From positions 17,367 through 81,366 of the IMG/VR virus record IMGVR_UViG_3300027769_000026: DNA of 64,000 nucleotides, one strand, 5' to 3'. The notes below the pieces were generated by a model, which searched no databases, had not been told where the DNA came from, and was given only the letters and a program-made list of their open reading frames with translations. The first letter of the stretch is position 1, and each line of letters opens with the position of its first letter. Shown here one piece after another: positions 479 to 51,200 of this stretch. The position numbers and the translations under genes were made by a program. Source of the stretch: a virus (Duplodnaviria; Caudoviricetes).

Positions 479-829
479 TCAGACATCTTCTGGATAAGAA
501 CGGTTACCGTATTTTAACACCAGTTCGCCGTCTTCGTTTAGATAGTACGCCAACATTCTTTCATCCCAACGATATTGTTCGTAGTTGATATTGGCGTATG
601 TAAGCTCGTGGTCCAGACCACGCCCTTCAAAAAAATCTATTCCTGCTTCAAAACCTTCCCAGTTATCGGTTGCTTCACCTGGGTTGTTTATAGTCAAAGT
701 ATCAGATCCACTGCGACTGTCAAATCTAGCTAGATACAGTGTTCCAGTTTCGTCACGCCTGAGCCCATAGAAAAAGCGATTGAGTCTTATGGCTTCACTA
801 TCTGGGCTTTGTCCAATATATTTGCTCAT
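479..829 (-). CDS. Hypothetical virion structural protein
   Basis: Clean 116-aa ORF overlapping its upstream neighbour (TAATG) within the fibre cluster. Confidence 0.7.
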   Translation of the reverse strand: MSKYIGQSPDSEAIRLNRFFYGLRRDETGTLYLARFDSRSGSDTLTINNPGEATDNWEGFEAGIDFFEGRGLDHELTYANINYEQYRWDERMLAYYLNEDGELVLKYGNRSYPEDV

Positions 830-1167
830 TATGGTGTAATCTCACTATAACTAACCAGCACGTCGGCGCTGTCATCTGTATCTGCTACCACGATCAAACT
901 CTGCTGATAGTACATGTTAAACTTCTGATCTCCGCCGCATGCTACCAACGAGCATCCGGGCAAAATTTCAATGTCCTTGAACAGCCAAACGGCCACACTT
1001 GAATCATCATCTAGTACTTTTGCACTCACATGTATTGCATCTTCTGTAACATTGGCAATGTTGAAACCTAGTATTACTGCATATTTAGTCACAGTTGTGG
1101 ACAGCAAAACCGTTTCGGTTGTACCGCAGCCTGGACTAATCACGTTTCTAAGGTCTGTACTTGCCAT
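829..1167 (-). CDS. Small beta-sandwich virion protein (paralog of 7275-7601)
   Basis: 112 aa, alternating beta pattern; GFNIAN...V...IEILPG.SL resembles GLYVSN...V...VPIAPNSTL in 7275-7601. Confidence 0.7.
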   Translation of the reverse strand: MASTDLRNVISPGCGTTETVLLSTTVTKYAVILGFNIANVTEDAIHVSAKVLDDDSSVAVWLFKDIEILPGCSLVACGGDQKFNMYYQQSLIVVADTDDSADVLVSYSEITP

Positions 1168-23244: not shown

Positions 23245-24093
23245 ATGACACAAGCTAACAATCCGTTAGGACAGTATTTTAGAAAGCCAGGACTCAATGT
23301 GGCATTGCCCAGCGGAGGAAAGTTCTACAAGACACCGCCCAAGATAACTGTTGACGGTGAGATTGCGGTATATCCAATGACTGCAAAAGACGAACTGCTG
23401 GTAAAAAATGCAGACTCTTTGCTGAACGGAGATGCTATTGTTCAATTGATCAAGAGCTGTGTGCCTGACATTGCGGACCCACAAGAAATGCCCAATCCAG
23501 ACGTGGATGCTGTACTGCTGGCCATACGCAAAGCCACATATGGTGAAAAGATGGAAATAACTGCCAGTTGTCCATGCAACGAATGGTCAGGCACTTACTC
23601 CATTGGAGTGGACAATCTTTTGATGAGGATCAAAGGCATTGACCCTGTGAATGAAGTTGAATTGTCAAACGAACTGCTGGTAAGATTGGCTCCCAGCACC
23701 TTGGCTGACCAAAATCGACTGGGCATGATACAGTTTGAAAACGTGCGCAAGCTACAAACTGTGATGGATTCCGAAGACGAAGAACTTAAACTGCGTGTAA
23801 GCAACGAAGTAACTGGTCGCAACATTGAGCTGGCACAAGAAATCATATCAAAGGTCATCATAGCAGTGATCACACCAGATGGTAATGAAATCAATGATCG
23901 CAAGTTCATCAGTGAGTGGTTGGGTCAGCTGGAAACCACAGAGTTCAAGAAAATCGAAGACAAGATCAGACTGATCAATCAAAGTGGCGCAGAAACAAAG
24001 GTTGAAGTTGGCTGTGGCAAAGAAGGATGTGATCGCAAGTTTGAAATTGAATTCACACTGGACCCAGTAAGTTTTTTCGCACAAGGCTCCTGA
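23245..24093 (+). CDS. gp26: Baseplate hub / tail assembly chaperone (T4 gp26-like)
   Basis: NPL..YFRKP...V.LPSGGKFY, V.PMTAKDE....N.D.LLNG.A....IKSCVP, D.DA.L.AIR.ATYG, two Cys pairs (CPC; C....C); SD GGAGG. Confidence 0.8.
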   Translation: MTQANNPLGQYFRKPGLNVALPSGGKFYKTPPKITVDGEIAVYPMTAKDELLVKNADSLLNGDAIVQLIKSCVPDIADPQEMPNPDVDAVLLAIRKATYGEKMEITASCPCNEWSGTYSIGVDNLLMRIKGIDPVNEVELSNELLVRLAPSTLADQNRLGMIQFENVRKLQTVMDSEDEELKLRVSNEVTGRNIELAQEIISKVIIAVITPDGNEINDRKFISEWLGQLETTEFKKIEDKIRLINQSGAETKVEVGCGKEGCDRKFEIEFTLDPVSFFAQGS

Positions 24094-24114
24094 GCACCAC
24101 CGACAATGCTCAGG
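24072..24114 (+). promoter_or_regulatory. Candidate -1 programmed ribosomal frameshift signal (slippery heptamer plus stimulatory hairpin)
   Basis: T_TTT_TTC at 24072-78 in the gp26 frame; CCTGAGCA/TGCTCAGG stem at 24089-96/24107-14; the -1 frame is open into ORF 24114-24323. Confidence 0.75.
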
Positions 24115-24323
24115 TGATGAAGTACGTTGACGAATATCGCACTGAAGCCAGGAGCCTGATAAAAGATGTACAACAACTAGCAGTGTACAGTGGGCTCAGT
24201 TACAACGAAGTGATCAACATGAGCCTGGAAGAAAGACAAGTCCTGTCAGAAGTCATCAAAGACAAACTAGACCTAGACATGAAGCTAGCTGGTATCAAGA
24301 CCAAAAAAGAAACATACATGTAA
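24114..24323 (+). CDS. gp51-like C-terminal chaperone segment (probably translated as a frameshift extension of gp26)
   Basis: GLSYNEVINMSLEERQ.L motif of the lambda T / gp51-like type; no properly spaced SD before GTG/ATG. Confidence 0.7.
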   Translation: MMKYVDEYRTEARSLIKDVQQLAVYSGLSYNEVINMSLEERQVLSEVIKDKLDLDMKLAGIKTKKETYM

Positions 24324-24903
24324 GTCAGAGCTTGCCTTATATTTCAAGTATCCTCTAACACTTGGCTGCTGTCGCAGCCTTCATTTCACATTCACATCGC
24401 TATCGCTCGTGATATGTTCATGAATCATTTTTATTTTTTAGATTCTAAGATTTATTTTGTTTACTAGTGAAACAAGATGATATTTTCTCTGAGGTTCCAG
24501 CCACACTTCGCCCTGTTAAGGGCAAAGTGAAAAGCTGGACTAAGGACTTTCTCCAGAGTACCATACCACATCTATCAGAAACAACCCAGAGGGCAAAGGC
24601 GGTCATGCTGTACCTTTTTACGTCTATCTTCTTTAATGACGCTGACTAATCCAAGACACCCGATAGAATCGTCTTGGGATCATGCAAGTTATAATTGTCA
24701 ATAGAGCTTGCTCATTTTGGTCTTACCATTCTCACACCAAGCCAGTTTCATACCGTTTGACTCGCGTCCTGTAAAGGATAGTGGTGCTGAGTCTGTGCTA
24801 CCGCGCACAATTTCCGTCCCTGCGATACGTGTGTCCAGGTCTAGGGCAACTAGTTATGCGGCCGTTGCGCAGCCTATCGGTAGTGTTGAGCCTGTGGGGA
24901 GTT
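24324..24903. ncRNA. Candidate large structured non-coding RNA (about 580 nt; minus strand favoured by transcription context)
   Basis: No credible ORF; many nested helices: 24364-79; 24487-96/24583-91 enclosing 24496-24539; 24651-77; 24684-24711; 24717-40; 24759-63/24789-93 enclosing 24767-78; 24794-24809 with its loop complementary to 24878-83. Confidence 0.6.
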
Positions 24904-25422
24904 TTAAGGGATAGAAAGGGTTTTAACTGCGTCTTTGTTCAATTGCCAAAAGTCGTCAAAGCCTGTAAATGCCCATGGTCCGTGTGTTACGCTGTCGTAA
25001 CGGACATGCCTATGTGTTGTAAATGTAGGGAAGTGCTTGTACTCAAACGCAATGAAGCTGCCTTTTCTGTTGAACTTCATGATAACAATGTTAAGGTCAT
25101 TGTCATCGGCAGCCTCAATGGTCTGGTCTATCCAGTTGTCTAAGAGTGTTATCTTACCTGACGCGAAAAGCTGGTGGAACGGAAACTCGGCATAGCTTTT
25201 GCATTCTATGTTGAGATGCTTCCAGTCACTTGGGGGAGTGATGTCGCCCTTCATTGAGCGTATCTGCCCTTCGTGCAAGAATTCTTTGCGAACAGCATTT
25301 TTGCCACCCACGTATGCACCGCTGGATGGAACACGTATGAACGATGCTCCATACAGTTCGGACAAGAAATTTGCGACATCTCTTTCCCAGGACTTACCTT
25401 TGTTTTTGCTTTTCGACGCCAT
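24904..25422 (-). CDS. Holliday junction resolvase-like PD-(D/E)XK nuclease (Hjc type)
   Basis: K.KG..WER.V...L, GDI, IECK motifs. Confidence 0.85.
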   Translation of the reverse strand: MASKSKNKGKSWERDVANFLSELYGASFIRVPSSGAYVGGKNAVRKEFLHEGQIRSMKGDITPPSDWKHLNIECKSYAEFPFHQLFASGKITLLDNWIDQTIEAADDNDLNIVIMKFNRKGSFIAFEYKHFPTFTTHRHVRYDSVTHGPWAFTGFDDFWQLNKDAVKTLSIP

Positions 25423-25454
25423 GTGTACTTTGATTTATGCCATGAACCTGTTTA

Positions 25455-25661
25455 TCAGGCCTTCTTATCGGTCATAGCAGTTTTCTCTACCATGATTTCC
25501 TTGCGGCGCTCACCAGCTGCCTTGCGGATGTCGCCTAGCGCCTTACGTGCGCGACTTGCAGCCGCCTTGACGCCCTTGCCAGTGAACTTAGCGTTCTCGT
25601 CGAGATACGTTTGAAATGCTTCTGCAATAATGTCGTGATTGCTTTTTGTTTGTTCGGTCAT
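25455..25661 (-). CDS. Histone H1-like nucleoid protein (Hc1 family-like)
   Basis: F..Y..EN.KF..KGVKAAA.RARKAL..I.K....RRKEI; SD GGAGG spacing favours ATG 25661. Confidence 0.75.
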   Translation of the reverse strand: MTEQTKSNHDIIAEAFQTYLDENAKFTGKGVKAAASRARKALGDIRKAAGERRKEIMVEKTAMTDKKA

Positions 25662-25663
25662 TT

Positions 25664-27439
25664 TCATGCCTCCACCATATCCACATCCGTCGAGAACGTG
25701 GTAAATCCGTTTTCTTTGACAACCTGCAAACTGTTGTTCACACGTGTTATCAATTCATCTCTATGAGATATCAAGAAAACATTCTTCTTTGATTCTCTGC
25801 TGAACTTCTTGAGCACGGCCAGTGCGGCGTCTACGCCAACTGGATCCATACCTGAATCTACAAGCTCGTCGATGAACAGCAAATTACAAGGAAAATTCAA
25901 ACTCTCAAACACGTCTCTGAAACTCCAACTCAATCCAAGAATGAGTCGGTTACGTTCTCCTCGGCTGAGGTTATCAAAGTCAAATTCTTGTCCTAGCATC
26001 TTGATACCAACAGTAAGGTCGCTTTGGAAATTGACCTCATGTGGCAACTGTAGCAATGTAAGATAGTGATTCAACCTGTGATTCAAATAGCTCAAGTTCT
26101 GCTCAATAATGCGACGTCGCACAAATGAGTCCTTGTTAGTAAGCAATTTATACAAGAACTCTTGGTGTTCAAGTTTCTTGTTAAGAACGTTGATTGGGTT
26201 CCAGTCAACTTCTGCTAGTGCTTTGTTGCGCAATGTTTCAATCTGATCCTGATATGGATCCGTGTCCGCATCACGCTGTACCAATTGCGATTTTAGGTTT
26301 TCCAAGCTACTTTTGTGGTTCACAGCATCATTTATGTCGGTGTACCGAACATGTGGTGCTGTGCCCAAAACACCAGATTCTTCAATCTTTGTTTTGGCCT
26401 CCTGCTCCAGCGCATGTTCACGCTCTAGATCATCTGCCACGCTCATCATTGCAGATTCCAGCTCGGAGATCATGGATGTTTGTTGGTCATCATGCAAGCC
26501 CTGTCCGCAAGCATGACACTTGTGATCTTTTGCTTTATCGCATGCGCCAGTTAACTCTACCAACTGCCCGCTCAGACGCTTTACTGCGGCCTGTGCATTT
26601 GCCAAGTCCTTGGTGTAACGCTTGATCTTTTGCTCTTTTTCTTTCCATGCAGTCAGTGCTGAATGGTTTGCAAGTTCTTGGTCAATGTCAATGGTTTCAA
26701 GTTCGTTGATCGAAGCAACCAGCTTAACCATGTCTTCATCTTTTTTCTTGACCCAGATGCGACTGCGACGTTCAATGTCCTCAATTGATGCTTGGATCTT
26801 GGCATTGGTTTCTTGCAGTGCCCTGATTCGGAATTCTTCTTCTTTGATGCCATCTCTAGTGTGGCGCATGGCTTCTTTGAGTAGCTCTGCTTTTTCACTC
26901 AGCAGTGTGATACCAAGAAGCTCTTCAATGATCTCTTTTTGATCATTGTTCTTCATGCTAAGGAAAGGTTCGTTGTAGGTGTTCAGCGCCAGGATGTGTT
27001 TGAACATTTCGTGGCTCATGCCCAGGATGCGCTCTACTGCTTCCTGGGTAAGTTTGTTTTCGCCCTGTCCTTCGTTTGTGCCTGCTTCGTTTACTTCGTC
27101 ATCGTCAACTGCGAAACGAAATATGTTGGGCTTGCGTCCACGTTCAATGCGATAGGTGTGGCCATTCTTTTCAAACTCCACAGTGACCAGCATGTTCTTG
27201 TCGTTGGTCTTGTTGATAAGATTGTCTTTGCGGATGTTGCTGAGCGCATTGCCATATAGCGCATAGCTGAGTGCATTGACGATTGTGGTCTTGCCCACAC
27301 CGTTACGTGCGCCTTCACCACCCATGTCCATGTTAAGGCCAATGACTAGGGTGAGGCCATGCTGGTCTAGATTTACCGCTTGGGTAACATTACCAACAGA
27401 CAGGAAGTTCTTTACTGTGAGATTTTTAATTGTCAGCAT
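25664..27439 (-). CDS. gp46: Recombination endonuclease ATPase subunit (gp46/SbcC/Rad50)
   Basis: Walker A NGVGKTT, Zn-hook CHAC, signature LSRGE, Walker B LLFIDE, D-loop DSGMD, H-loop ISH. Confidence 0.95.
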   Translation of the reverse strand: MLTIKNLTVKNFLSVGNVTQAVNLDQHGLTLVIGLNMDMGGEGARNGVGKTTIVNALSYALYGNALSNIRKDNLINKTNDKNMLVTVEFEKNGHTYRIERGRKPNIFRFAVDDDEVNEAGTNEGQGENKLTQEAVERILGMSHEMFKHILALNTYNEPFLSMKNNDQKEIIEELLGITLLSEKAELLKEAMRHTRDGIKEEEFRIRALQETNAKIQASIEDIERRSRIWVKKKDEDMVKLVASINELETIDIDQELANHSALTAWKEKEQKIKRYTKDLANAQAAVKRLSGQLVELTGACDKAKDHKCHACGQGLHDDQQTSMISELESAMMSVADDLEREHALEQEAKTKIEESGVLGTAPHVRYTDINDAVNHKSSLENLKSQLVQRDADTDPYQDQIETLRNKALAEVDWNPINVLNKKLEHQEFLYKLLTNKDSFVRRRIIEQNLSYLNHRLNHYLTLLQLPHEVNFQSDLTVGIKMLGQEFDFDNLSRGERNRLILGLSWSFRDVFESLNFPCNLLFIDELVDSGMDPVGVDAALAVLKKFSRESKKNVFLISHRDELITRVNNSLQVVKENGFTTFSTDVDMVEA

Positions 27440-42266: not shown

Positions 42267-45200
42267 ATGGCTAGCAAAAACAAAAAGACAACAACGTCTT
42301 ATCAAACTTATCCTGGCAACAAGCCAGCGGCATTTGTACCTACGTCTAGCCTACTGCCAGGTGTACACAGGACCACACGCAACAACAAATACATTGATGC
42401 GTTATTGGGAGAGTTAACCAGCAAAGGCACATTGGAATCATTTGATGGTTATATCGGTAGTGCCAATGGAAAACTGCGTCGTAAGCAAGACATTTATCTA
42501 GCCAACGACAATCGTTATTGCATGGGTGTCAGTGCAGATTCATTGGTTGGCGATATAGTTGACATTCGAGAAGAGCTAACTGTTCGTGAAAATATTCCAT
42601 TAAAGGATGCAAAACAACTCACAGGAAAATCCTATGGATTTGATCCGCATATTGATCCTGACAAATTTATAAACTACCAGAATTACTACTGGCTTCCTTT
42701 TGATCTTCCAACCATTGCCCTAGAAGCAGGGTTGGATGAAAACGGTGATCCAGCAACAGTAAACATTGGTACAAACATTATTGGTCAAGCATATTATGTG
42801 ACACATACTCAGGCCAATGGCCGCAGATTAACATTGCGCAATGGCATGAAGGTGTATTTCATACAACGCGAACTTGGAGTATGGGAAGAATCAGATTCTT
42901 ATCTGACCATTCCATCAGACAGCCTGGATCCAAAGTACTATATTGTATCAGGTGTTGGGTCTTCTATTAGATTTTTGCCTTTTGACTTGTATGCAAATCC
43001 TTTGAGTTTGATTTCTGTCTTGGCACCATTGCCATGGGATAACAAGAACTGGGATCGTAATCGCTGGGACACAGACGTACTGACCCCAGGCGGTAAGCAG
43101 TATGTGACTATTGCATCAGGTAGTTCTAACTACAATGTATGGAGCCGTACAAATCGTTGGACACATGAACAAACTGCCCTTGAAACTGCGCGATTCCTGG
43201 ACATTGCTGATGGCGACATATTAAAAATTGAAGATCGAGCCGCAAGACCCATTATTGAATTTTATTCAAATATAGACTTGTGGAATCACGGAAATCTTGG
43301 AAAAAATCACGTTACTTTGTTGACCAATAGCGTGAGCTCGCTGAATGATATCAACGGAATTGTGAATCCGGTTATCGATGACGTTTCATTGCCCGAAGGT
43401 GCAAGAATAATATTTGTTGGCGGCGACCCGGCAATTAAAAACAAGACATTTGTTGCAACAGGGGTTGATGTTGGTGTTGTATTTGTGCCAGCGTCAGATT
43501 CTAATCCAACAGCAGGTCAATCAGTGCTGATATTAGATGGCCCACACCTTGGACAGACCTACTGGTACAATGGCACAGACTGGATCAAGGCACAACAGCT
43601 TTCAGCAAGAGGTCAGGCACCGCTGTTTAGGTTGTTTGACGGCGAAGGCATACCAATTGAAAATTACGATGTTGCCGCATTTAGTGGTAGTCAAATTTTT
43701 GGTTATAGTTCTGGGCCAACATATGACAGAGAATTAAATCTTTCGATTGCATATGACAGCAGTTATAAAAATAGCCTAAGCACCAATATTGGTGCAATTT
43801 CTTTCACCAATTACATTTCTACAACATATCAGCGATCAGATGGTATCACTGTCAACCAGTTGAAAGATATTACATCTTTCAACTACTTTAGAGAATGGAA
43901 CATTGACAATGTTCTGGTCAATCCAATATGGACATACAGTTCAGGCTGGAAACCAATCAGCGAATGTTTTTCAGTCAAAAAAGAATATTCGTTTAACGTA
44001 CAACAAGATGGAGATTTTTCTCTAGTAGGTTCGCAGTGGGTGCATGATCCTTCCTATGCGTGGAATATATCAATGCCTCCTATACAGGGCCTGGACGAAC
44101 ACAAGGACTTTTTGATTGAAGAAGTTTCTTCTGCTATGCCAGCAAGAGAATGGCACGATTCGCTGATTTTTTCCAAGATCAAAGACGGAAAGATCTACAA
44201 TTATACTGGCCGTAGATTGCAAATTGCAAACCAAAGAGGCATAGTATTCATTGACACATTTGATGTTGAAGTTGATCTTCCAGCCAGTTTGTTTGATGTC
44301 AAAACAACATATTTGCCAACAGACTGCCGTCCAGGAGATTACATCATTAAATGGAAAATAGGTGAACAAAATTGGACTGTGGCCAAGGTCATTGGCCGTC
44401 GACGCGATGACATACGCCGCCCTTCTGTTTTGGTTAACGGACAACTCAAAGATACCAGCGAATGGAGAATCATCTACGCCGGAGGCCCAGATGAATATAC
44501 CACACCTGTGTTAGGACTACGAGTGTTGGGACTAAAAGACAAAGATACAGTTGATATTGTGGTCAACGGAAGCATGATAACTTCTGTTAACAGAAATGCA
44601 GATATTTCAAATCTAAGCAATAACCCCTACAATGAAATTGTTTCACGCGGAGCATACGGACAATTCTTTGATCACTTTCGTTCTGCGATAGCTAAGAATA
44701 TCATGCCTCGTTTTCTTGATGACACATATCATCAAGGTACGCAACATCCTAGATTTGATCAAGTTGAAGGATATAATAGTTCATTTGGTGACAACGACTG
44801 GGCGTTTACTATGCCTACAAGATCGCCAGGCAACAACATACTGTTACACGACTCTCCTGCCAATAGGTACTTCTGGACCATGCGCTCAGCCGAAACTGGC
44901 TCAGTATTTCCGCTCATGGAAGATGCACGTAAAGCCTACAGCAACTTCAAATTGAAATTCCTGCAGAAAATTGAAAGACTGTATCTAGATCAGGACATTT
45001 CAGACGTACAGGCTGCGGTTGATAAAGCACTTTCAGATATATTTGTTGGTCGTAACGAATCGTTTAGATACGCACACAGCCATATGGTCATGTGGGGCAC
45101 GCCAGACGCAGAAAAAATCTACACCTTTGCGGATTCAACTGCGCAGTTAGAGATTGACGGCGACGATGCTGATCCAACTTTTACTGAAACCATTGACGGC

Positions 45201-48200
45201 GAAGACGCAGACCCTACACCGCCAGTTATTTTACTCGATGGTGGATTAGCTGCCTCTTTTGTTGATTATGAATGTGAAATTCCAAGCATCGCAGAACTTG
45301 GGGAAATATCAACGGATCATGTGTATGTGTACTACAAGAATTATAATGACACCGCTTGGCGCATACTGACATACACAAAAGATTATGACATTGATCAAAC
45401 AGCAAGGACTGTGCATATTTCTGCTGAGTTTGATACTCCATGCCAGTTTAAGATTTGTGTATTCAAGAAAACACGTGTAAGTTATGTTCCACCCACACCA
45501 GCCAAACTAGGCATCACACCTTGGTATCATCCGGAGTACTATACAGATACAACATACCAGGGTGCAGACGTATTGTTCATACAAGGTCATGACGGCAGTT
45601 TGACGCCTGCTTGGGGAGACTTCCGCGATGACATGTTGTTGGAATTTGAACGCCGAGTTGCCAGCAGTATTGGCAAAGATCGAGGCAATCGTGCTGAACT
45701 GTTGTTTACAAAACACTGGCCAAGAAAGATGCGACAGACTTGGTATAATCGTGTTGAACTTAACAATTATCTTGAGGATGCATGGCTAACATGGTCCAAT
45801 GAAAACAACATTGTTGAAACACCCAATTTGAGCCATGTTATCAATCGCCCGCTAACATACAACTATTCTGCATTTGAAGCGGCAGACGGCAACACTTATG
45901 GCAGCTGGAGAGACATATACCGACATGTGTATGGTACCGATCGTCCAGATACGCACCCTTGGGAAATGCTTGGCTTTGCTCGCAAACCTTCCAACTGGGA
46001 TTCTATGTACAGCTGGACTGACCTTGTAAAACGTAACAATTTGATACAAGCACTCACCATTGGCAACAGAAGCAACGAGCCATTTCCGGCTGTGGATACC
46101 AGTAGTTTTATCAAACATGATGTTGAATATTTGTCTGGACCAGATGCACCATTCTTGCCTGTGGACGAAAGCGGCCTTCTTCGTAATCCACTGACGGCAG
46201 GTTGGTACGATGCCACTACTGTAAACGCCAGTGAAGATACGATCAATGACTGGACATTTGGTAACATTGGTACACAAGAACTAGCATGGCGTAGAAGCAG
46301 TGAGTTTGTGTTCTCTTGTGCAAACTGGCTATTATTGGCCGGTGGCCCAGAGTATTTAGAATCAGTTTGGGAAGGACCTAAATTGGTTGTCAGCTCATTG
46401 GACAATGCTATCAATGTTGACAGAACAAAACTAAAAATAGTTCCTTGGGCCACGGCAAATCAACACAGAGAAACCGGATCAGATGTTGTGCCGGGGTATG
46501 GTATGTTGATCAATGAACTGGCAGCCAGCTTGAGTCCACAAAAATTAGCAGATGTTATCAATGAAACACGCAACATCAAAACTAGATTGCAATGGACTGC
46601 CAACGGTTTCCTAGAATCCAACAGCTTGGATTTTGTGGCTGATATTTTGATCGAACAAGAAAAAGGCAATCGAATTCCACAAGAAGACTATGCTATAAGT
46701 TTGAAAACAACAAGTCCAAGTCTTGTTCTAACTTACAGCGGCGTCAAGGTAATTGTTGACAGCACTGGCGGGTACAAAATACAAGGGTTTGATAACATAT
46801 CGACATTTTTCCCTTACTACTCGGTAAAAATTGCCGGCCCAAGCATACCAGTTGAAGTGGGCTCCATTACCTACAAAAAGTATACCACGTTTGAAACCAC
46901 GATATCATATCTTGATTATGGCACTGTTTTAATGACACGACAAGAAGTCATCAACTTCTTGTTAGGCTACGGTCGATATCTGGAATCTCAAGGCTGGAAG
47001 TTTGAAGACACTGCTCCTACACAGGACGACATCTTGGATTGGAGTTACAGTGCACGTGAGTTTGTTACCTGGAGCCAGACACGCTGGCAGGAAAACACCC
47101 AGATTTCGCTAAGTCCAGCCGCGCAAAATCTTGTGCTGTCGCATGACACACGATTCTTTGGTCGACTGGATACGACGTTTTTAAGTAGAACATATTTGTT
47201 GGACGACAACGGCCGCCGTATTGACTTCAAGGATACCGAAGTAGTTAGAGAACAAGAGCAAACAACCATCAAGAGTCGTCCAGGTATTGGCATATACTTT
47301 GTACGTTGCGGTCTTGAAGAATATACACATACCGTTGTGTTCAAGGACGTGACAATATTCAATGATCAGATCAATGATTACTTGTTTGGTCTCTCTATAA
47401 GACGCCTACGTGCACAAGGCAAGCGCACAAGTAACTGGGATGGCCGTCCATTGGGATTTGGTTATCTGGTGCGCGAATCAACTGTTGAACAAAACCTAGA
47501 TACCATATCTAGAGAACTCGGCGACGATTATATCACCATTGAAAACCGCAGTTCAAATCCTTGGATACGTAACCTTAAGAAAAATCAGTTGGGTATATCA
47601 AGACCCGATGATACATTGTTGGCAGCTGGTTTTAGCAAAGATACTGCGGATCAGTTCCAAGCAGGTAGTTTGCGTAGAAAAGGCACATCCAACATCATTG
47701 AGAAGTTTACCAAAGGAGTACTGGGCGATCAAACAAGTTCCGATCTTGCAGTGGCACCAGGCATCACAGTTAGAGAAAACTGGATGTTCCGCATGGGCGA
47801 GGACATTGGCAATGTTGGAACCAAGTCTGTTTGGGAAATAAAAATACCGTCAGAAACCAGAGAAACATTGTTGGATCAAGTGACCTTGCGAGTGATTCCT
47901 CCCTTTGTTGAAAACACCTACTATGAAGGAACCACAGACAGGGCCGCCGACAACATTATCGACCTGCTGGGTCCAAAGGATCAACGCTGGGTAAAATATC
48001 CAAGAAATTTTGAGTTACCGCTGAGAACCAAGTCAGTACAGGTAACAGATTTGCCACAGGCAGGCATCGCTGATCGAATTGAAACCGACTACAAGTTCAT
48101 GGATATTGAGCAGTTGTATGACATAGACATAGCAGATGACATACTAGGGGAGATGTCAGCAGTCAACACATGGTCAACAAAGTTGCCGTACGACGAAGGT

Positions 48201-51200
48201 GATCTTGTTAGATACAAGGGTCAGCTCTACCGCGCAAATTATTCACAGTTGGCACAGAGTCTGTTCGACCCCGACGCATGGACTGCCATCGAAGAACTGC
48301 GTCTTCCTAGCATTTGGCTGGCAAACAAAACTCCAGAGTCCAATGATGTAAGAGATTGGACTGTGTTGCAAACCATGGACAGGGGACTAGCCATAAGAGA
48401 GTTGTGTGCTGGTACATTTGAAGATCCTTATCATCCTTTGGTTGAAATGGAAACAGGTGTCAAACACAATGTTTCTGTCAACGATTGGGTGTTGATATTG
48501 AGCACAGAAAGATCAGGACTCAATGGGTACTACAAAGTATCTTCTATTAGAGATACAGAATCTTTCTTTATTGAACTAAAATTCAACCCATTTGATTTTG
48601 TTGTTCCAGAATTTCCACCTGGCAACACTTCAGCAGGCGGAAAATTGTTTGTTGTCAAACATACACATTTCTACACCGTAGAAGAAATGAATGCCAGCAT
48701 ACTTGATTCCTCGTATGAGTGGAACAATGGCATGATGGCCTATGTTGACGATCGTATCAATCAACCGCTGGTATATTCCTATAGAGGAAACTATTCATTG
48801 TTTAGGAACAATGGATTTTATGACAATCGCGGATTGGCATTTTATGATCTGCAGGATGACAATTTCTTGCATCAATGGGAAGCCAACAACGAAGAAAACA
48901 TGCCGTGGCTGTTTGCAATAGGAGTGTTGCTGGCCGCAATTAAACAATTGGATGCTGGTACATTGGAATTAACCGATCCCTGTGCTGTTAGTTTAGCGGC
49001 ACTAGGAGCACCAGGGCCCAATGTGTTGCCCAACACAGTGGCATCAATCACAGTGCAAGATGCATTGAATGGAATTATTTTCAGACAGTTCAATGATTGT
49101 GCATGGGTACTGGCTGAAAAAATGTACACATCAGTCACTGCCGCTGCTGCTGCCATCAACACTATTTTTGTTGAGGATTGCATAGCATTTGTTGCCGCAG
49201 TCGAACCAACCACATTGGGATCTGGTACCACGACGGATTTGGCCAGGATAGCAAAAACTATTTGGTCCTACGTTGACTATCAGTATTTGTTTGCACAACA
49301 GATTTGGTTCTTCCGGGGCAGGATATATGCTAATAACAACGTGTTGATAGACTACAACGGCGCTGGACTAATAGCATTACAAAACCCAGTTGAAGATTCC
49401 AATGGTGACTTCCTGCTTGATGAATTTCACATGATTGGAATTAAATCTTACGCTTCTAGAGAATTGATGATGGTGTCAATGGGATATTCATCAAGAACAA
49501 AGAGAGATTCAGACGCTATTGCATTGTTGGATACTGTGGAATCATTTGGTAGCGGATCAGGAACATTTAATCAAATTCCCTTCGTGTTTGATCGAGCACT
49601 GGGCGACATTGTTGACCACAGCAGAATCACCAAGGTTGAAATTGTTGACTACGAAAACAACCGTGTACTGGCCACGTTAAATCCATATGATCCAGCCGCT
49701 GGCATATTGCCAGCCTATGTTGAATCTTTTATTGATTGGAAACAACATGACGATCCTGCTAGTTATACTGCATCAGACCTTGACGATCAAGAAGGATACA
49801 GTGTGCGCCCAAGATTTGCATGGTTTGATGAGCATCAAGGACAAGTATGGTGGGATCTAAGTGCAGTACGCTACTATGACTACTACCAAGGCAGTGTGAG
49901 AGAAAAAGCATTTCAATGGGGCAAACAGTTCCCCGGTAGCACAGTACAAATCTATGAATGGGTCAAGAGTGTGGTTCCGCCGGTGCAGTGGGTTGAATCA
50001 GCACGTACAGGTTTCTTGGTTGATTTTGAATCAGTGACTGGAACTCCTTATAATAAAATAGTAAACGGAGAACCTAAATATTTCTGGAGTGAGCGAGAAG
50101 AAAAAGACAAGAATGGTGTAATACGCACATTCTACTATTTCTGGGTGGCTGGCATGGATCGTACATACAGCTCAAAAACAAGCATCCAGTCAGTGTCGTC
50201 TAAGTCACCAGGAAGTTCGTCGGCACAGGTATACACTCGCGCCACTGCTGGCATTCCGTCAACAGTAAACAAATTTAATGTGACACAGATTGCATCAGTT
50301 GTTGGCAATCCCAGAGTCAGCGGAGCCATGTGGTTTGCTGGATTGCAAAAAAATGCAATATTGTTAAGTGGTGTTGGTAAACTGCTTGGACAAAAGGGAG
50401 CAGTACTGCGAATCGAAGTGGACAACGACACAGATGCGCACGACCAATGGCTGTTGATGAAAGAAAATGACATTACATCAACTGTGTCTGATTGGTTGCA
50501 TATCAGAATGAGAGACAGTATCATTGGGTCAGACCAAACAGAAACAATATACAGTGTTAGCGAATACCAAGAAGGTGTAGCCTACGCACGTGGATCTGTG
50601 GTGAGAAAAAACAACAACTACTATCGTGCATTTAGAGATTTCCTAGGCACAGATGTTGCATTTGGTGACAGTAGTCCTGTTTCTTTTGTGTCGCAGCCAT
50701 GGCAACGAATTTGGGATTTCCGCCAAATTGAAGTCAACAAGATAAGCGAAATACAAGGAAAGAGTGTTCCGGATTACAATCGTCACAAGTATGATCGCTA
50801 TGGCAATGAAATACGGCCAACACAGCAAAGCTGGTTGAATGATCGCATTGAAGCCATTCGTATATTTGTAAATGCAGCCAATAGAGAGTTAGCCAAAGTC
50901 AATGTGACCTCTATCATTGGATGGGATGATCGATTGAATAAAATTATTCCCACAAACGATCCCACTTTCTCATATGATGTTTCTCTCTACTGGGACTATG
51001 TGGACTTTGTTGATTCGACATTTGATCCGGCTCGTGTTCCTGTGGCAACTCTTACATCTGGAACCGAACTCTACAACTATGTTGCTTCACCAGGTGACTA
51101 TGTAAAAGTACTAACAGGCGATGAAGAAATTGTCAACATCTGGGAAAAGATTGCCGACGGATGGAATATAGTATTTCAGCAAAACGGAACAATACAGCTG

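What the first reader, a model, noticed from the sequence alone, without database searches (positions are those of the whole stretch)
24324..24903. Candidate undescribed large structured RNA (about 580 nt) with nested helices and a possible pseudoknot
Seen: the only long non-coding gap in 64 kb, packed with complementary segments. GGCTGC-TGTC-GCAGCC (24364-79). CTCTG(A)GGTT/AACCCAGAG (24487-96/24583-91) encloses a three-tier arm CCAGC..CACTT.GCCCT-GTTA-AGGGC.AAGTG..GCTGG (24497-24538). CCAAGAC/GTCTTGG (24651-77). GCAAG/CTTGC (24684-24711). TTGGT/ACCAA (24717-40). GACTC/GAGTC (24759-63/24789-93) encloses TCCT-GTAA-AGGA. TGTGC/GCACA (24794-24809) has a loop that, with one stem base, forms CTACCG matching CGGTAG (24878-83). 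This is far more structure than a terminator needs. Inference: a functional ncRNA (ribozyme-like, scaffold or guide RNA) transcribed with the gp55-gp47-gp46-resolvase operon. The alternative is a structured replication/packaging origin; an AT-rich tract lies at 24420-24470. Wobble pairs are split between strands, so orientation is not settled.
Basis: partly seen in the sequence, partly recalled or inferred. Interest (0 to 1): 0.85.

Follow-up and report, generated by a model that had tools for sequence, protein, structure and literature searches.

The report
Full-length Polynucleobacter-1 twin-box phage RNA
The gene-free gap behind a small nuclease gene of this uncultured freshwater T4-like phage encodes a real non-coding RNA of about 410 bases with three pseudoknots. 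Only its first third is catalogued (the orphan Rfam motif Polynucleobacter-1), and its uncatalogued tail shows the same short word twice, for a partner that is still unknown.

Summary
Window 24888-24478, minus strand, is a conserved, heavily base-paired RNA.

- **Known part:** its 5' 141 nt (24873-24733) are a full-length, high-scoring match to Rfam RF01718, Polynucleobacter-1 (86.9 bits against a cut-off of 37). That part is not new.
- **Uncatalogued part:** the family continues about 15 nt upstream and about 255 nt downstream of the Rfam model.
- **Structure:** on 66 non-redundant homologues (42 viral, 24 bacterial), 13 helices including three pseudoknots are 97.6% paired, against 33-45% in slid controls. 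43 of 63 pairs show compensatory changes.
three long-range helices and one outer stem tier are not conserved. The hairpin at 24364-79 is a terminator-like site of the converging gene.
- **Twin boxes:** the 3' domain carries two single-stranded boxes (here GAGAAA, 24553-48 and 24489-84). They are nearly always identical within one RNA and differ between lineages. No complementary partner was found.
- **Distribution:** the RNA sits at one syntenic site in T4-like phage contigs. It also sits on islands of freshwater Burkholderiales, beside DUF6641 and a 190-aa tyrosine recombinase.
- **Function:** unknown.

This scan has found the same RNA class before on other DNA.

The parts
24478..24888 (-). 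Conserved structured RNA, about 410 nt (full-length Polynucleobacter-1-type RNA). The 5' end lies between 24903 and 24888. The 3' end is near 24478, perhaps as far as about 24448.
   Evidence: Conservation profile and alignments. An nhmmer profile of the whole RNA finds full-length homologues in 133 loci. Covariation is shown. One RNA-library contig spans 24448-24797, a weak hint for the 3' end.
24733..24873 (-). The part already catalogued: Rfam RF01718 Polynucleobacter-1, model positions 1-141 of 141.
   Evidence: cmscan gives 86.9 bits against a gathering score of 37, E 5e-19.
24878..24883 (-). Pseudoknot PK1, 5' strand CUACCG. It lies upstream of the Rfam model and pairs with CGGUAG at 24798-24803 in the loop of P4.
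   Evidence: 66 of 66 sequences are paired at all six positions. The middle pair is U-A, C-G or G-C. Single compensated changes occur in L159, L167 and L092.
24793..24810 (-). Hairpin P4 (24810-06 with 24797-93). Its loop carries the 3' strand of PK1 (24803-24798).
   Evidence: 99% paired, with 3 pairs changed on both sides. It is part of the Rfam consensus.
24846..24868 (-). Hairpin P2 (GCAAC/GUUGC).
   Evidence: 100% paired, and all 5 pairs show compensatory changes.
24731..24791 (-). Multi-helix junction of the 5' domain: P5 (24791-89 with 24733-31, and 24786-82 with 24739-35) encloses P6 (24778-75 with 24770-67) and P7 (24762-59 with 24743-40).
   Evidence: Rfam consensus. P5 is 94-99% paired and P7 99% paired, with 4 of 4 pairs covarying in P7. 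P6 is 87% paired.
24684..24711 (-). Hairpin P8 (GCAAG/CUUGC), the first helix of the uncatalogued 3' domain.
   Evidence: 100% paired, with 3 of 5 pairs covarying.
24651..24677 (-). Hairpin P9 (CCAAGAC/GUCUUGG). Its loop (24668-64) forms pseudoknot PK2 with 24575-24571.
   Evidence: P9 is predicted with the PK2 strand in its loop in 63 of 66 single-sequence folds. In PK2 all 5 pairs covary, with up to four pair types each, and 89% of cells are paired.
24580..24640 (-). Core of the 3' domain. P10 (24624-21 with 24583-80) encloses P11 (24617-14 with 24598-95) and P12 (24594-91 with 24587-84). Pseudoknot PK3 joins 24640-36 to the P11 loop at 24606-02. The core includes the nearly invariant GUAAAAGGUACAGC..ACCGCC.
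   Evidence: P10 is 98% paired, PK3 100%, P11 95.5% and P12 96%, with compensatory changes in each.
24548..24553 (-). Twin box 1 (GAGAAA, within GGAGAAAG at 24554-47).
   Evidence: The two same-sense boxes co-vary across 66 sequences. No intramolecular partner was found.
24506..24527 (-). Hairpin P14 (CUUUGCCC-UUAACA-GGGCGAAG), lying between the two boxes.
   Evidence: 98% paired, with 3 pairs covarying.
24484..24489 (-). Twin box 2 (GAGAAA, within CAGAGAAAA), near the 3' end of the conserved RNA.
   Evidence: the boxes are also present in the variant class with another 5' domain.
24364..24379 (+). Not part of the RNA: a terminator-like hairpin of the converging + strand gene 24114-24323.
   Evidence: Terminator scan. 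The hairpin lies outside the conserved region.
24904..25422 (-). Upstream neighbour: a 172-aa PD-(D/E)XK nuclease (Pfam PDDEXK_15; PHROG 'RusA-like resolvase'). Most relatives have a 142-aa GIY-YIG (SegE-type) nuclease at the same place.

Best explanation
**Shown.** The gap encodes the full-length form of the orphan Polynucleobacter-1 RNA. It is a minus-strand, non-coding RNA of about 410 nt built from two domains.
- The 5' domain is the Rfam motif plus a previously unmodelled pseudoknot, PK1.
- The 3' domain is absent from Rfam. It is a compact core held by two more pseudoknots (PK2, PK3), followed by two single-stranded boxes on either side of hairpin P14.
- The 3' domain is the more widespread part. 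A second class of phage RNAs keeps it, boxes included, behind a different 5' domain.

**Inferred.**
- In this phage the RNA is made as the tail of the gp55-gp47-gp46-nuclease transcript and probably processed out.
- It then acts in trans as a folded scaffold.
- The scaffold presents two copies of one short, fast-evolving, purine-rich word to two copies of the same partner. That partner is most likely a complementary nucleic acid, less likely a dimeric protein.
- It would therefore work as a bivalent decoy, sponge or adaptor rather than as a cis element of the neighbouring gene.
- The RNA also occurs on islands of freshwater Burkholderiales. This suggests that it acts on something common to phage and host cell, possibly within a phage-island conflict.
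For: **Identity**
- Rfam hit of 86.9 bits over the whole model.

**Extension beyond the Rfam model**
- Conservation runs from 24888 to 24478.
- A whole-RNA profile finds 61 of 63 genome loci and more than 100 viral loci that were picked with a pattern from the 3' domain only.

**Structure**
- 63 pairs are 97.6% paired against 33-45% when slid. 43 pairs change on both sides. The covariation score is 0.565 against 0.06-0.11.
- Strand-specific G-U pairs occur throughout.

**Non-coding**
- No codon periodicity and no frame conservation. Two ORFs inside it, scanned against PHROGs, hit no family.

**Boxes**
- The same-sense boxes co-vary: AGCGAAAG, AUCAAAAG, CCAAAAG, GUGUCAAGU, GGUCAAGU, AGGAUAAU against AGGUUAAU, UGGCAU, and GAGAAA here.
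- They also occur in the class with another 5' domain, as UGGUAAAG x2 and AGAUAGA x2.
- No complementary segment exists inside the RNA.

**Autonomy from the neighbouring gene**
- The spacer between the upstream stop codon and the RNA varies from 3 to 208 nt.
- The upstream gene is either GIY-YIG or PD-(D/E)XK.
- In bacteria the RNA has its own conserved TAAATA box upstream in 24 of 24. Most of the 23 copies read also have a GC-rich hairpin followed by U, terminator-like, about 90-170 nt beyond the 3' strand of P14. The upstream DUF6641 gene there is divergent.

**Presence in RNA libraries**
- 24 lake or freshwater metatranscriptome runs hold part of the stretch.
- Their contigs cover 24448-24797 and join 24600-25700.
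Against: - No experiment and no raw stranded reads are available. RNA-library contigs cover the flanking genes at similar depth, so a discrete, processed RNA is not shown.
- No partner for the boxes was found. There is no complementary or extra copy within 2.5 kb, nor in the 8-kb bacterial loci.
- The boxes are short (6 nt shared in this window) and are not strictly identical in every sequence (L161).
- Concerted evolution of two duplicated structural modules could mimic 'two binding sites'.
- The many invariant unpaired nucleotides would fit a ribozyme just as well.
Confidence: 0.4

Rival explanations
1. It is a ribozyme or the catalytic RNA core of an RNP. The pseudoknotted core would form an active site, and the boxes would be substrate-binding or processing sites.
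For: More than 50 invariant positions, many of them unpaired, at 51% mean column identity. Three pseudoknots are present. The size and complexity are typical of large ribozymes.
Against: No Rfam ribozyme or intron family matches even at E up to 10. No cleavage or ligation junction was seen in RNA-library contigs, since no joints were reported. The resemblance of CAGAGACUAA...UUAGUAUAG to group I R/S elements comes from memory only and no model supports it.
Confidence: 0.15
2. It is a cis-acting 3' UTR element of the nuclease / gp46-gp47 operon, acting as an mRNA stabiliser, processing site or regulator with no life of its own.
For: It starts at most 16 nt after the nuclease stop codon on the same strand, with no promoter-like site in between. 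RNA-library contigs join it to the nuclease gene. Weinberg et al. 2010 noted that most examples lie downstream of one gene family.
Against: In bacteria it stands alone, with a conserved promoter-like box, usually a terminator-like hairpin, and a divergent upstream gene. In phages the upstream gene family differs and the spacer varies. Of 496 deposited phage records with the same GIY-YIG gene, the four loci read have no RNA beside the gene, and blastn with three RNA queries found none in the collection. About 410 nt with three pseudoknots is far more than such a role needs.
Confidence: 0.1
3. It is a guide RNA. The variable boxes would programme a neighbouring small nuclease (in phages) or the 190-aa tyrosine recombinase that lacks an N-terminal DNA-binding domain (on islands) towards a short DNA word.
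For: It is adjacent to small nucleases (142-172 aa) in phages and to a catalytic-domain-only tyrosine recombinase on islands. The boxes vary fast between lineages and are single-stranded. Their length of 6-9 nt resembles a recombinase overlap region (established knowledge of tyrosine recombinases).
Against: The proposed protein partners are unrelated to each other (GIY-YIG, PD-(D/E)XK, tyrosine recombinase). The GIY-YIG gene is a core gene of hundreds of T4-like phages, and no RNA was found in them. The PD-(D/E)XK gene is annotated as a resolvase type in jumbo phages, so an in-situ swap of a resolvase explains the neighbourhood. No box or its complement occurs at flanks or tRNA genes. The recombinase is separated from the RNA by a variable cargo slot.
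Confidence: 0.05
4. It is a DNA-level element, such as a replication or packaging origin with iteron-like direct repeats, or a recombination site, rather than an RNA.
For: Direct repeats that are identical within an element and differ between elements behave like iterons. An AT-rich tract follows at 24420-24470.
Against: The covariation preserves G-U pairs on one strand only, and these would be A-C mismatches on the other. A curated RNA covariance model matches the 5' part. The AT-rich tract and everything 3' of about 24478 are not conserved. No variant lacking the segment between the boxes was seen.
Confidence: 0.05

Closest known systems
Polynucleobacter-1 RNA motif (Rfam RF01718; Weinberg et al. 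2010, Genome Biol 11:R31, PMC2864571)
   Same: Window 24873-24733 matches the whole 141-position model at 86.9 bits. The helices are the same (P2-P7). The habitat is the same (fresh water, Burkholderiales). The position downstream of a small phage-type gene is the same. The function is unknown in both.
   Different: - The Rfam model covers only about a third of the RNA.
- It misses the 5' strand of pseudoknot PK1 (24883-78), the whole 3' domain (P8-P14, PK2, PK3) and the twin boxes.
- The 2010 supplement noted a variable 'tail', and said the motif was not seen in any sequenced purified phage.
- Here the RNA sits in a T4-like phage contig and in more than 100 related viral contigs.
Large ornate phage- or prophage-borne RNAs of unknown function (GOLLD, ROOL; Rfam families)
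   Same: These are also large, intricately folded non-coding RNAs carried by phages and mobile elements, with no known function and many conserved unpaired nucleotides.
   Different: No Rfam large-RNA family matches the window or the 16 related loci searched. This RNA is smaller (about 410-520 nt). It has the twin boxes. In phages it sits at one fixed syntenic site, between the recombination-nuclease genes and the baseplate genes.
Bridge RNA / seekRNA of IS110-IS1111 elements
   Same: It is a structured non-coding RNA next to a recombinase on bacterial mobile elements, with short variable single-stranded segments.
   Different: - The island recombinase is a tyrosine recombinase, not a DEDD/IS110 enzyme.
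- The two variable segments are identical to each other, rather than reading two different DNA partners.
- No match of the boxes to flanking DNA was found.
- The phage copies have no recombinase nearby, and the 81-kb fragment has none at all.
Sponge or decoy RNAs that display repeated identical motifs on a folded scaffold (CsrB/RsmZ type; established knowledge)
   Same: The same short single-stranded word is presented more than once by a structured RNA that acts in trans.
   Different: There are only two copies. The word is not the GGA motif except in one lineage (AGGAUAAU). The scaffold is far more conserved and knotted than in known sponges. No partner is known.

Membership tests
Rfam RF01718 Polynucleobacter-1 RNA | Score at or above the curated gathering threshold (37 bits) with the family covariance model | tested here: met
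   86.9 bits, E 4e-17 in the whole window and 5e-19 in the region. The same result came from the whole virus record.
Rfam RF01718 Polynucleobacter-1 RNA | Full-length match with all consensus helices formed | tested here: met
   Model positions 1-141 of 141 match without truncation. The helices are 94-100% paired, with compensatory changes across 66 homologues.
Rfam RF01718 Polynucleobacter-1 RNA | Context described by the authors: downstream of GOS11034-family genes (possible homology to PSSM2_218), fresh water or Burkholderiales | tested here: inconclusive
   The habitat and taxa fit. Most phage relatives have a 142-aa GIY-YIG gene upstream that is common in cyanophages. I did not test whether that gene is GOS11034 or PSSM2_218. 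This window has a PD-(D/E)XK gene at that place instead.
Group I intron | Match to the group I intron covariance model, with P3-P9 core | tested here: not met
   No hit at E up to 10 in 24200-25000 with permissive filters.
Group I intron | Interrupts a gene, with exons on both sides on the same strand | tested here: not met
   The next genes downstream are on the opposite strand. The bacterial copies stand between a divergent gene and a terminator-like hairpin.
GOLLD / ROOL and other large RNAs in Rfam | Match to the family covariance models | tested here: not met
   Only RF01718 is reported in the window, and only RF01718 and one tRNA in 16 related loci.
IS110-type bridge RNA / seekRNA | Encoded beside an IS110 (DEDD) recombinase | tested here: not met
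   The neighbours are PD-(D/E)XK or GIY-YIG nucleases in phages and a Phage_integrase-family tyrosine recombinase on islands.
IS110-type bridge RNA / seekRNA | Variable loop segments complementary to the DNA flanking the element | tested here: not met
   No complement or extra copy of the box occurs at a consistent place within 2.5 kb, and no copy lies beside a tRNA gene in the 8-kb bacterial loci. True island ends were not mapped.
DNA-level repeat element (iterons, attC-like sites) | Conservation explained at DNA level, with no strand-specific RNA pairing | tested here: not met
   G-U pairs are frequent on the minus strand only, and the helices show compensatory changes.

The most novel reading that the evidence does not exclude
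The twin boxes may be a programmable specificity element in a conflict between T4-like phages and small islands of their Burkholderiales hosts.

**Supporting observations**
- All 24 island copies of the RNA carry the box TAAATA upstream.
- In this phage TAAATA lies within 60 nt upstream of ORF starts 15 times, against 0.5 expected. It therefore looks like the phage's late-type promoter core.

**Proposed reading**
- An island copy could be switched on by the infecting phage's own late transcription.
- It would then compete with, or redirect, whatever the phage RNA binds through its boxes.
- This would be a new kind of RNA-based decoy or adaptor shared by a virus and its parasite or defence island.
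Probability: 0.08. Interest if true: 0.85.

Novelty: new variant of a known kind. Interest (0 to 1): 0.6.

Why it matters
Polynucleobacter-1 has been an orphan 141-nt motif since 2010. The 2010 paper is the only one in the searched library that names it. Three points follow from this work.

- **It is a much larger RNA.** The motif is the head of a 410-520-nt RNA with three pseudoknots, which places it among the few large, complex bacterial or phage RNAs with no known job.
- **The conserved part is the uncatalogued tail.** The 3' domain is the part kept across the two classes of phage RNA, so Rfam searches miss one whole class.
- **It now has testable handles:**
  - two identical, fast-evolving boxes;
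  - a fixed site in T4-like phages of abundant lake bacteria;
  - carriage on islands of cultured Polynucleobacter and Limnohabitans strains, where genetics and RNA biochemistry are possible.

If the boxes turn out to read a nucleic acid, this would be a new RNA-based recognition device shared by phages and mobile islands.

Tried and rejected
**Searches for the RNA in deposited phages**
- blastn of the window RNA, of a distant phage homologue and of the alternative-5'-domain class against 50,697 deposited phage records found no RNA match. Only the end of the GIY-YIG gene of Methylophilales phage Melnitz matched.
- I read the loci of four cultured phages that carry the GIY-YIG gene (Melnitz, Variovorax V45v66, Acidovorax ACP17, Synechococcus S-SRM01). 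nhmmer with the whole-RNA profile and with the 3'-domain profile found nothing at E up to 10.

**Searches for a partner of the boxes**
- No column of the alignment is consistently complementary to the boxes.
- No reverse complement occurs at a consistent place within 2.5 kb.
- No further copy lies near tRNA genes or elsewhere in the 8-kb bacterial loci.
- AGCGAAA-like words in the bacterial 3' hairpin do not co-vary with the boxes.

**Partner genes in this phage**
- The 81-kb fragment holds no DUF6641 and no Phage_integrase gene. The record is only about 23% complete, so this proves little.

**Expression**
- Only assembled contigs of RNA libraries were available.
- They cover the RNA and the flanking genes alike and stop at 24448, 24600 and 24654.
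- They give no strand, no ends and no relative level.
- Stretches without cover are not interpreted.

**Promoters**
- The sigma-70 scan gives no site placed to drive the RNA.
- TATAAATA is not enriched in the window: 1 found against 1.5 expected.
- No TAAATA lies between 24890 and 30100 on the minus strand.

**Other readings dropped**
- Group I intron: this was a lead from memory (R/S-like words) and no model supports it.
- Coding reading of the short ORFs: rejected.
- A 5'-3' closing helix (CAC/GUG): its columns overlap PK1 and never vary informatively, so it was dropped.
- P3, P6, P9, P13 and a terminal hairpin could not be scored by columns, because MAFFT misaligns these variable hairpins. 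P9 was checked by single-sequence folds instead.
Full report
**What is at the coordinates.**
- The stretch 24324-24903 lies between two convergent genes.
  - On the + strand, a T4_baseplate-family gene (23245-24093) and a 69-aa ORF (24114-24323).
  - On the - strand, a 172-aa nuclease gene (24904-25422).
- Upstream of the nuclease gene on the - strand lie an Hc1-like 70-aa gene, gp46/gp47-type SbcC/SbcD genes, a MazG gene and a gp55-type late sigma factor gene.
- The window is part of an 81-kb fragment of an uncultured T4-like phage from IMG/VR, estimated 23% complete.
- No tRNA gene is present.

**Identity of the 5' part.**
- Infernal against Rfam 15 finds one family in the 64-kb window: RF01718, Polynucleobacter-1.
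  - The hit is on the minus strand at 24873-24733, covering model positions 1-141 of 141.
  - It scores 86.9 bits against a gathering score of 37.
- The family was defined by Weinberg et al. 2010 from 16 sequences, with no function assigned.
  - Their supplement says most examples lie downstream of one gene family with possible homology to a cyanophage gene.
  - It says no example was seen in a sequenced purified phage.
  - It also says the '3' half is not always detected'.
- That paper is the only one in the searched library that names the motif.

**The RNA is much longer than the Rfam model.**
- A pattern taken from the motif fetched 67 viral loci.
  - Aligned to the window, conservation runs from about 24888 to about 24478.
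  - Blocks far outside the model reach 78-86% identity, while the flanking genes are less alike.
- A second pattern, taken only from the 3' part, found more than 117 viral loci and 63 loci in bacterial genomes.
  - A profile of the whole RNA confirmed 61 of the 63 bacterial loci.
  - Most of the confirmed loci matched over nearly the full profile length.
  - Of eleven bacterial copies tested with Rfam, all begin with RF01718.
- The bacteria are almost all freshwater Burkholderiales (Polynucleobacter, Limnohabitans, Comamonadaceae, Dechloromonas). Several genomes hold two copies.

**Structure.**
- I aligned 66 sequences that are under 92% identical to each other: 42 viral and 24 bacterial.
- An all-against-all scan for stacked, covarying columns and pair-by-pair counts gave 13 well-aligned helices.
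- The formal count gave the following.
  - 97.6% of 4133 cells form standard pairs, against 33-45% when the partner is slid by 1-3 columns.
  - 43 of 63 pairs change on both sides.
  - The covariation score is 0.565, against 0.06-0.11 in the slid controls and 0.205 in shuffles.
  - 0 of 500 shuffles reach the observed score.
- Three of the helices are pseudoknots.
  - PK1 joins the 5' tail (24883-78, CUACCG) to the loop of P4 (24803-798, CGGUAG). It is paired in 66 of 66 sequences at all six positions. The middle pair is U-A, C-G or G-C, and rare changes elsewhere are all compensated.
  - PK2 joins the loop of P9 (24668-64) to 24575-71.
  - PK3 joins 24640-36 to the loop of P11 (24606-02).
- Frequent G-U pairs fix the strand as minus.
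- The short ORFs inside the region are not genes.

- Kept across the family: P4 with PK1, P6, P8, P9 and the two inner tiers of the 24506-24527 arm (P14).
- Not kept:
  - The long-range stem 24591-83/24496-87. Its five outer pairs are 25% paired and its four inner pairs 67%.
  - The outer tier CCAGC/GCUGG (25% paired).
  - UUGGU/ACCAA (61% paired).
  - GACUC/GAGUC (50% paired).
  - The long-range stem, UUGGU/ACCAA and GACUC/GAGUC also clash with helices that covary.
- The GC hairpin at 24364-79 is a + strand terminator-like site of the converging gene.
- The sequence 3' of about 24478, including the AT-rich tract, is not conserved.

**Twin boxes.**
- In the 3' domain, two same-sense segments on either side of P14 co-vary as direct repeats.
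  - Here they are GAGAAA at 24553-48 and 24489-84.
  - Elsewhere they are AGCGAAAG, AUCAAAAG, CCAAAAG, GCAAAAU, GUGUCAAGU, GGUCAAGU, AGACAAG, UGGCAU and others.
  - AGGAUAAU occurs in one lineage and AGGUUAAU in a close relative, changed in both copies.
- A short block just upstream of each box co-varies in the same way (UGUG in both, or UACG in both).
- I found no complementary segment inside the RNA.
- I found none at a consistent place in 2.5 kb of flank, and no extra copies beside tRNA genes in the bacterial loci.
- A second class of phage RNAs has a different 5' domain that Rfam does not recognise, but the same 3' domain with twin boxes. The 3' domain is therefore the more widely kept part.

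**Context in phages.**
- The RNA always sits between the gp47-gp46-Hc1-like-nuclease block and a convergent small gene plus baseplate gene.
- The nuclease directly upstream is a 142-aa GIY-YIG (SegE-type) protein in most loci. It is a 172-aa PD-(D/E)XK protein in this window and a few others.
- The GIY-YIG gene occurs in 496 deposited T4-like phage records: cyanophages, Melnitz, phiM12 and others.
- In the four such records read, no RNA lies next to that gene. blastn with three RNA queries found none in the whole collection.
- The PD-(D/E)XK gene resembles genes annotated as resolvases in jumbo phages.
- I therefore read the nuclease as the phage's junction-resolving enzyme, swapped in situ. 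I read its adjacency to the RNA as synteny rather than partnership.

**Context in bacteria.**
- The order is as follows.
  - A divergent DUF6641 gene.
  - The RNA.
  - In most of the 23 copies read, a hairpin and then a GC-rich terminator-like hairpin followed by U, about 90-170 nt beyond the 3' strand of P14.
  - A variable stretch that sometimes holds extra genes.
  - A 188-195-aa tyrosine recombinase consisting of the catalytic domain only.
- All 24 bacterial copies have a TAAATA box 19 or about 50 nt upstream of PK1.
- In this phage, 15 of the 21 TAAATA words lie within 60 nt upstream of an ORF start on the coding strand, against 0.5 expected.
- TAAATA is therefore very likely the phage's promoter core of the T4 late type. 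That the islands use the same box is a lead, not a result.

**Expression.**
- Twenty-four lake or freshwater metatranscriptome runs hold part of the stretch.
- Contigs of four of these runs were laid on 23600-25700.
  - They cover 24448-24797.
  - They join 24600-25700 across the nuclease gene.
  - They also cover neighbouring genes at similar depth.
- This shows presence in RNA libraries and is compatible with co-transcription. It shows no ends, strand or abundance.

**What it most likely is and does.**
- Shown: a real, minus-strand, non-coding RNA of about 410 nt with two domains and three pseudoknots. Its first third is Polynucleobacter-1.
- Inferred, with about 40% confidence for the whole reading: it is released from the operon transcript and works in trans as a scaffold. 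The scaffold shows two copies of one short word to two copies of one partner.
- Rivals:
  - a ribozyme (0.15);
  - a pure 3' UTR element (0.10);
  - a guide for the neighbouring nuclease or recombinase (0.05);
  - a DNA-level origin or site (0.05).

**Relation to earlier notes of this scan.**
- After I had found the extension, the pseudoknots and the co-varying direct repeats, the scan's notebook showed the same RNA class reported several times on other DNA.
  - It appears there as an 'extended Polynucleobacter-1 twin-box RNA' in phages.
  - It also appears as a large RNA beside DUF6641 and a miniature recombinase on islands.
- My results agree with those notes.
- Bold functional readings in two of those notes were later rated at 2-3%.
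- The finding is thus a further member, in a lineage with a PD-(D/E)XK neighbour, of an RNA class that is absent from Rfam beyond its first 141 nt.

**Verdict.** The feature is real. It is partly known (Rfam RF01718) and partly uncatalogued (PK1, the 3' domain and the twin boxes). Its function is unknown. Novelty: new variant of a known kind. Interest: 0.6.

Noticed in passing
window, 21 sites (for example 23217 +, 23163 -, 52521 +, 53185 +, 55290 +, 13354 -, 7904 -): The hexamer TAAATA occurs 21 times on both strands. Fifteen of these lie within 60 nt upstream of an ORF start on the coding strand, against 0.5 expected. It is very likely this phage's late-type promoter core. The full T4 word TATAAATA is not enriched (1 found against 1.5 expected).
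   Followed up: partly
L077, L086, L087, L102, L129 and 19 other bacterial loci, 19 or about 42-53 nt upstream of the RNA: All 24 bacterial island copies of the RNA carry a conserved TAAATA(A) box (TATAAATA in L087, L102 and L092). This is the same word as the phage's promoter box and a poor sigma-70 -10 element. It suggests that the island RNA might be driven by phage late transcription.
   Followed up: partly
window 24904-25422 (-), compared with L056:4461-4886, L027:1700-2131 and others: Two unrelated small nucleases occupy the same slot directly upstream of the RNA in related phages: PD-(D/E)XK (PDDEXK_15, 172 aa) here, and GIY-YIG (SegE-type, 142 aa) in most others. This looks like in-situ replacement of a resolvase-type enzyme.
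   Followed up: partly
L133, L138, L140-L143, L146, L148, L149, L151, L155, L157, L158, L166, L170, L174, L176-L180, L189-L191, L194, L197: A second class of phage RNAs has the same 3' domain and twin boxes (for example UGGUAAAG x2 and AGAUAGA x2). Its 5' domain of about 170 nt is different, and neither Rfam nor the whole-RNA profile recognises it.
   Followed up: partly
L003/L065 (+564..828 from the RNA start), L019 (+481..853), L012/L067 (+526..808), L060 (+487..826), L034 (+539..800): Some phage relatives have an extra ORF of 86-123 aa on the RNA's strand, between the 3' end of the RNA and the converging gene. This is a variable slot just behind the RNA, as on the bacterial islands.
   Followed up: no
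L077, L086, L129, L109, L108 and others, from about 60 nt beyond the 3' strand of P14: Most bacterial copies continue past the last box. They have an A-rich linker, a hairpin with the loop GAGCGnnAGCGAA, and a GC-rich hairpin followed by U (terminator-like). The bacterial RNA is therefore probably about 500 nt or more.
   Followed up: partly
window 25455-25667 (-): A 70-aa gene with a Pfam Hc1 (histone H1-like) match (E 6e-9) lies between gp46 and the nuclease gene. It is conserved at this place in most related phage contigs.
   Followed up: no
window 42267-52490 (+): A single open reading frame of 3407 aa. It was not examined.
   Followed up: no
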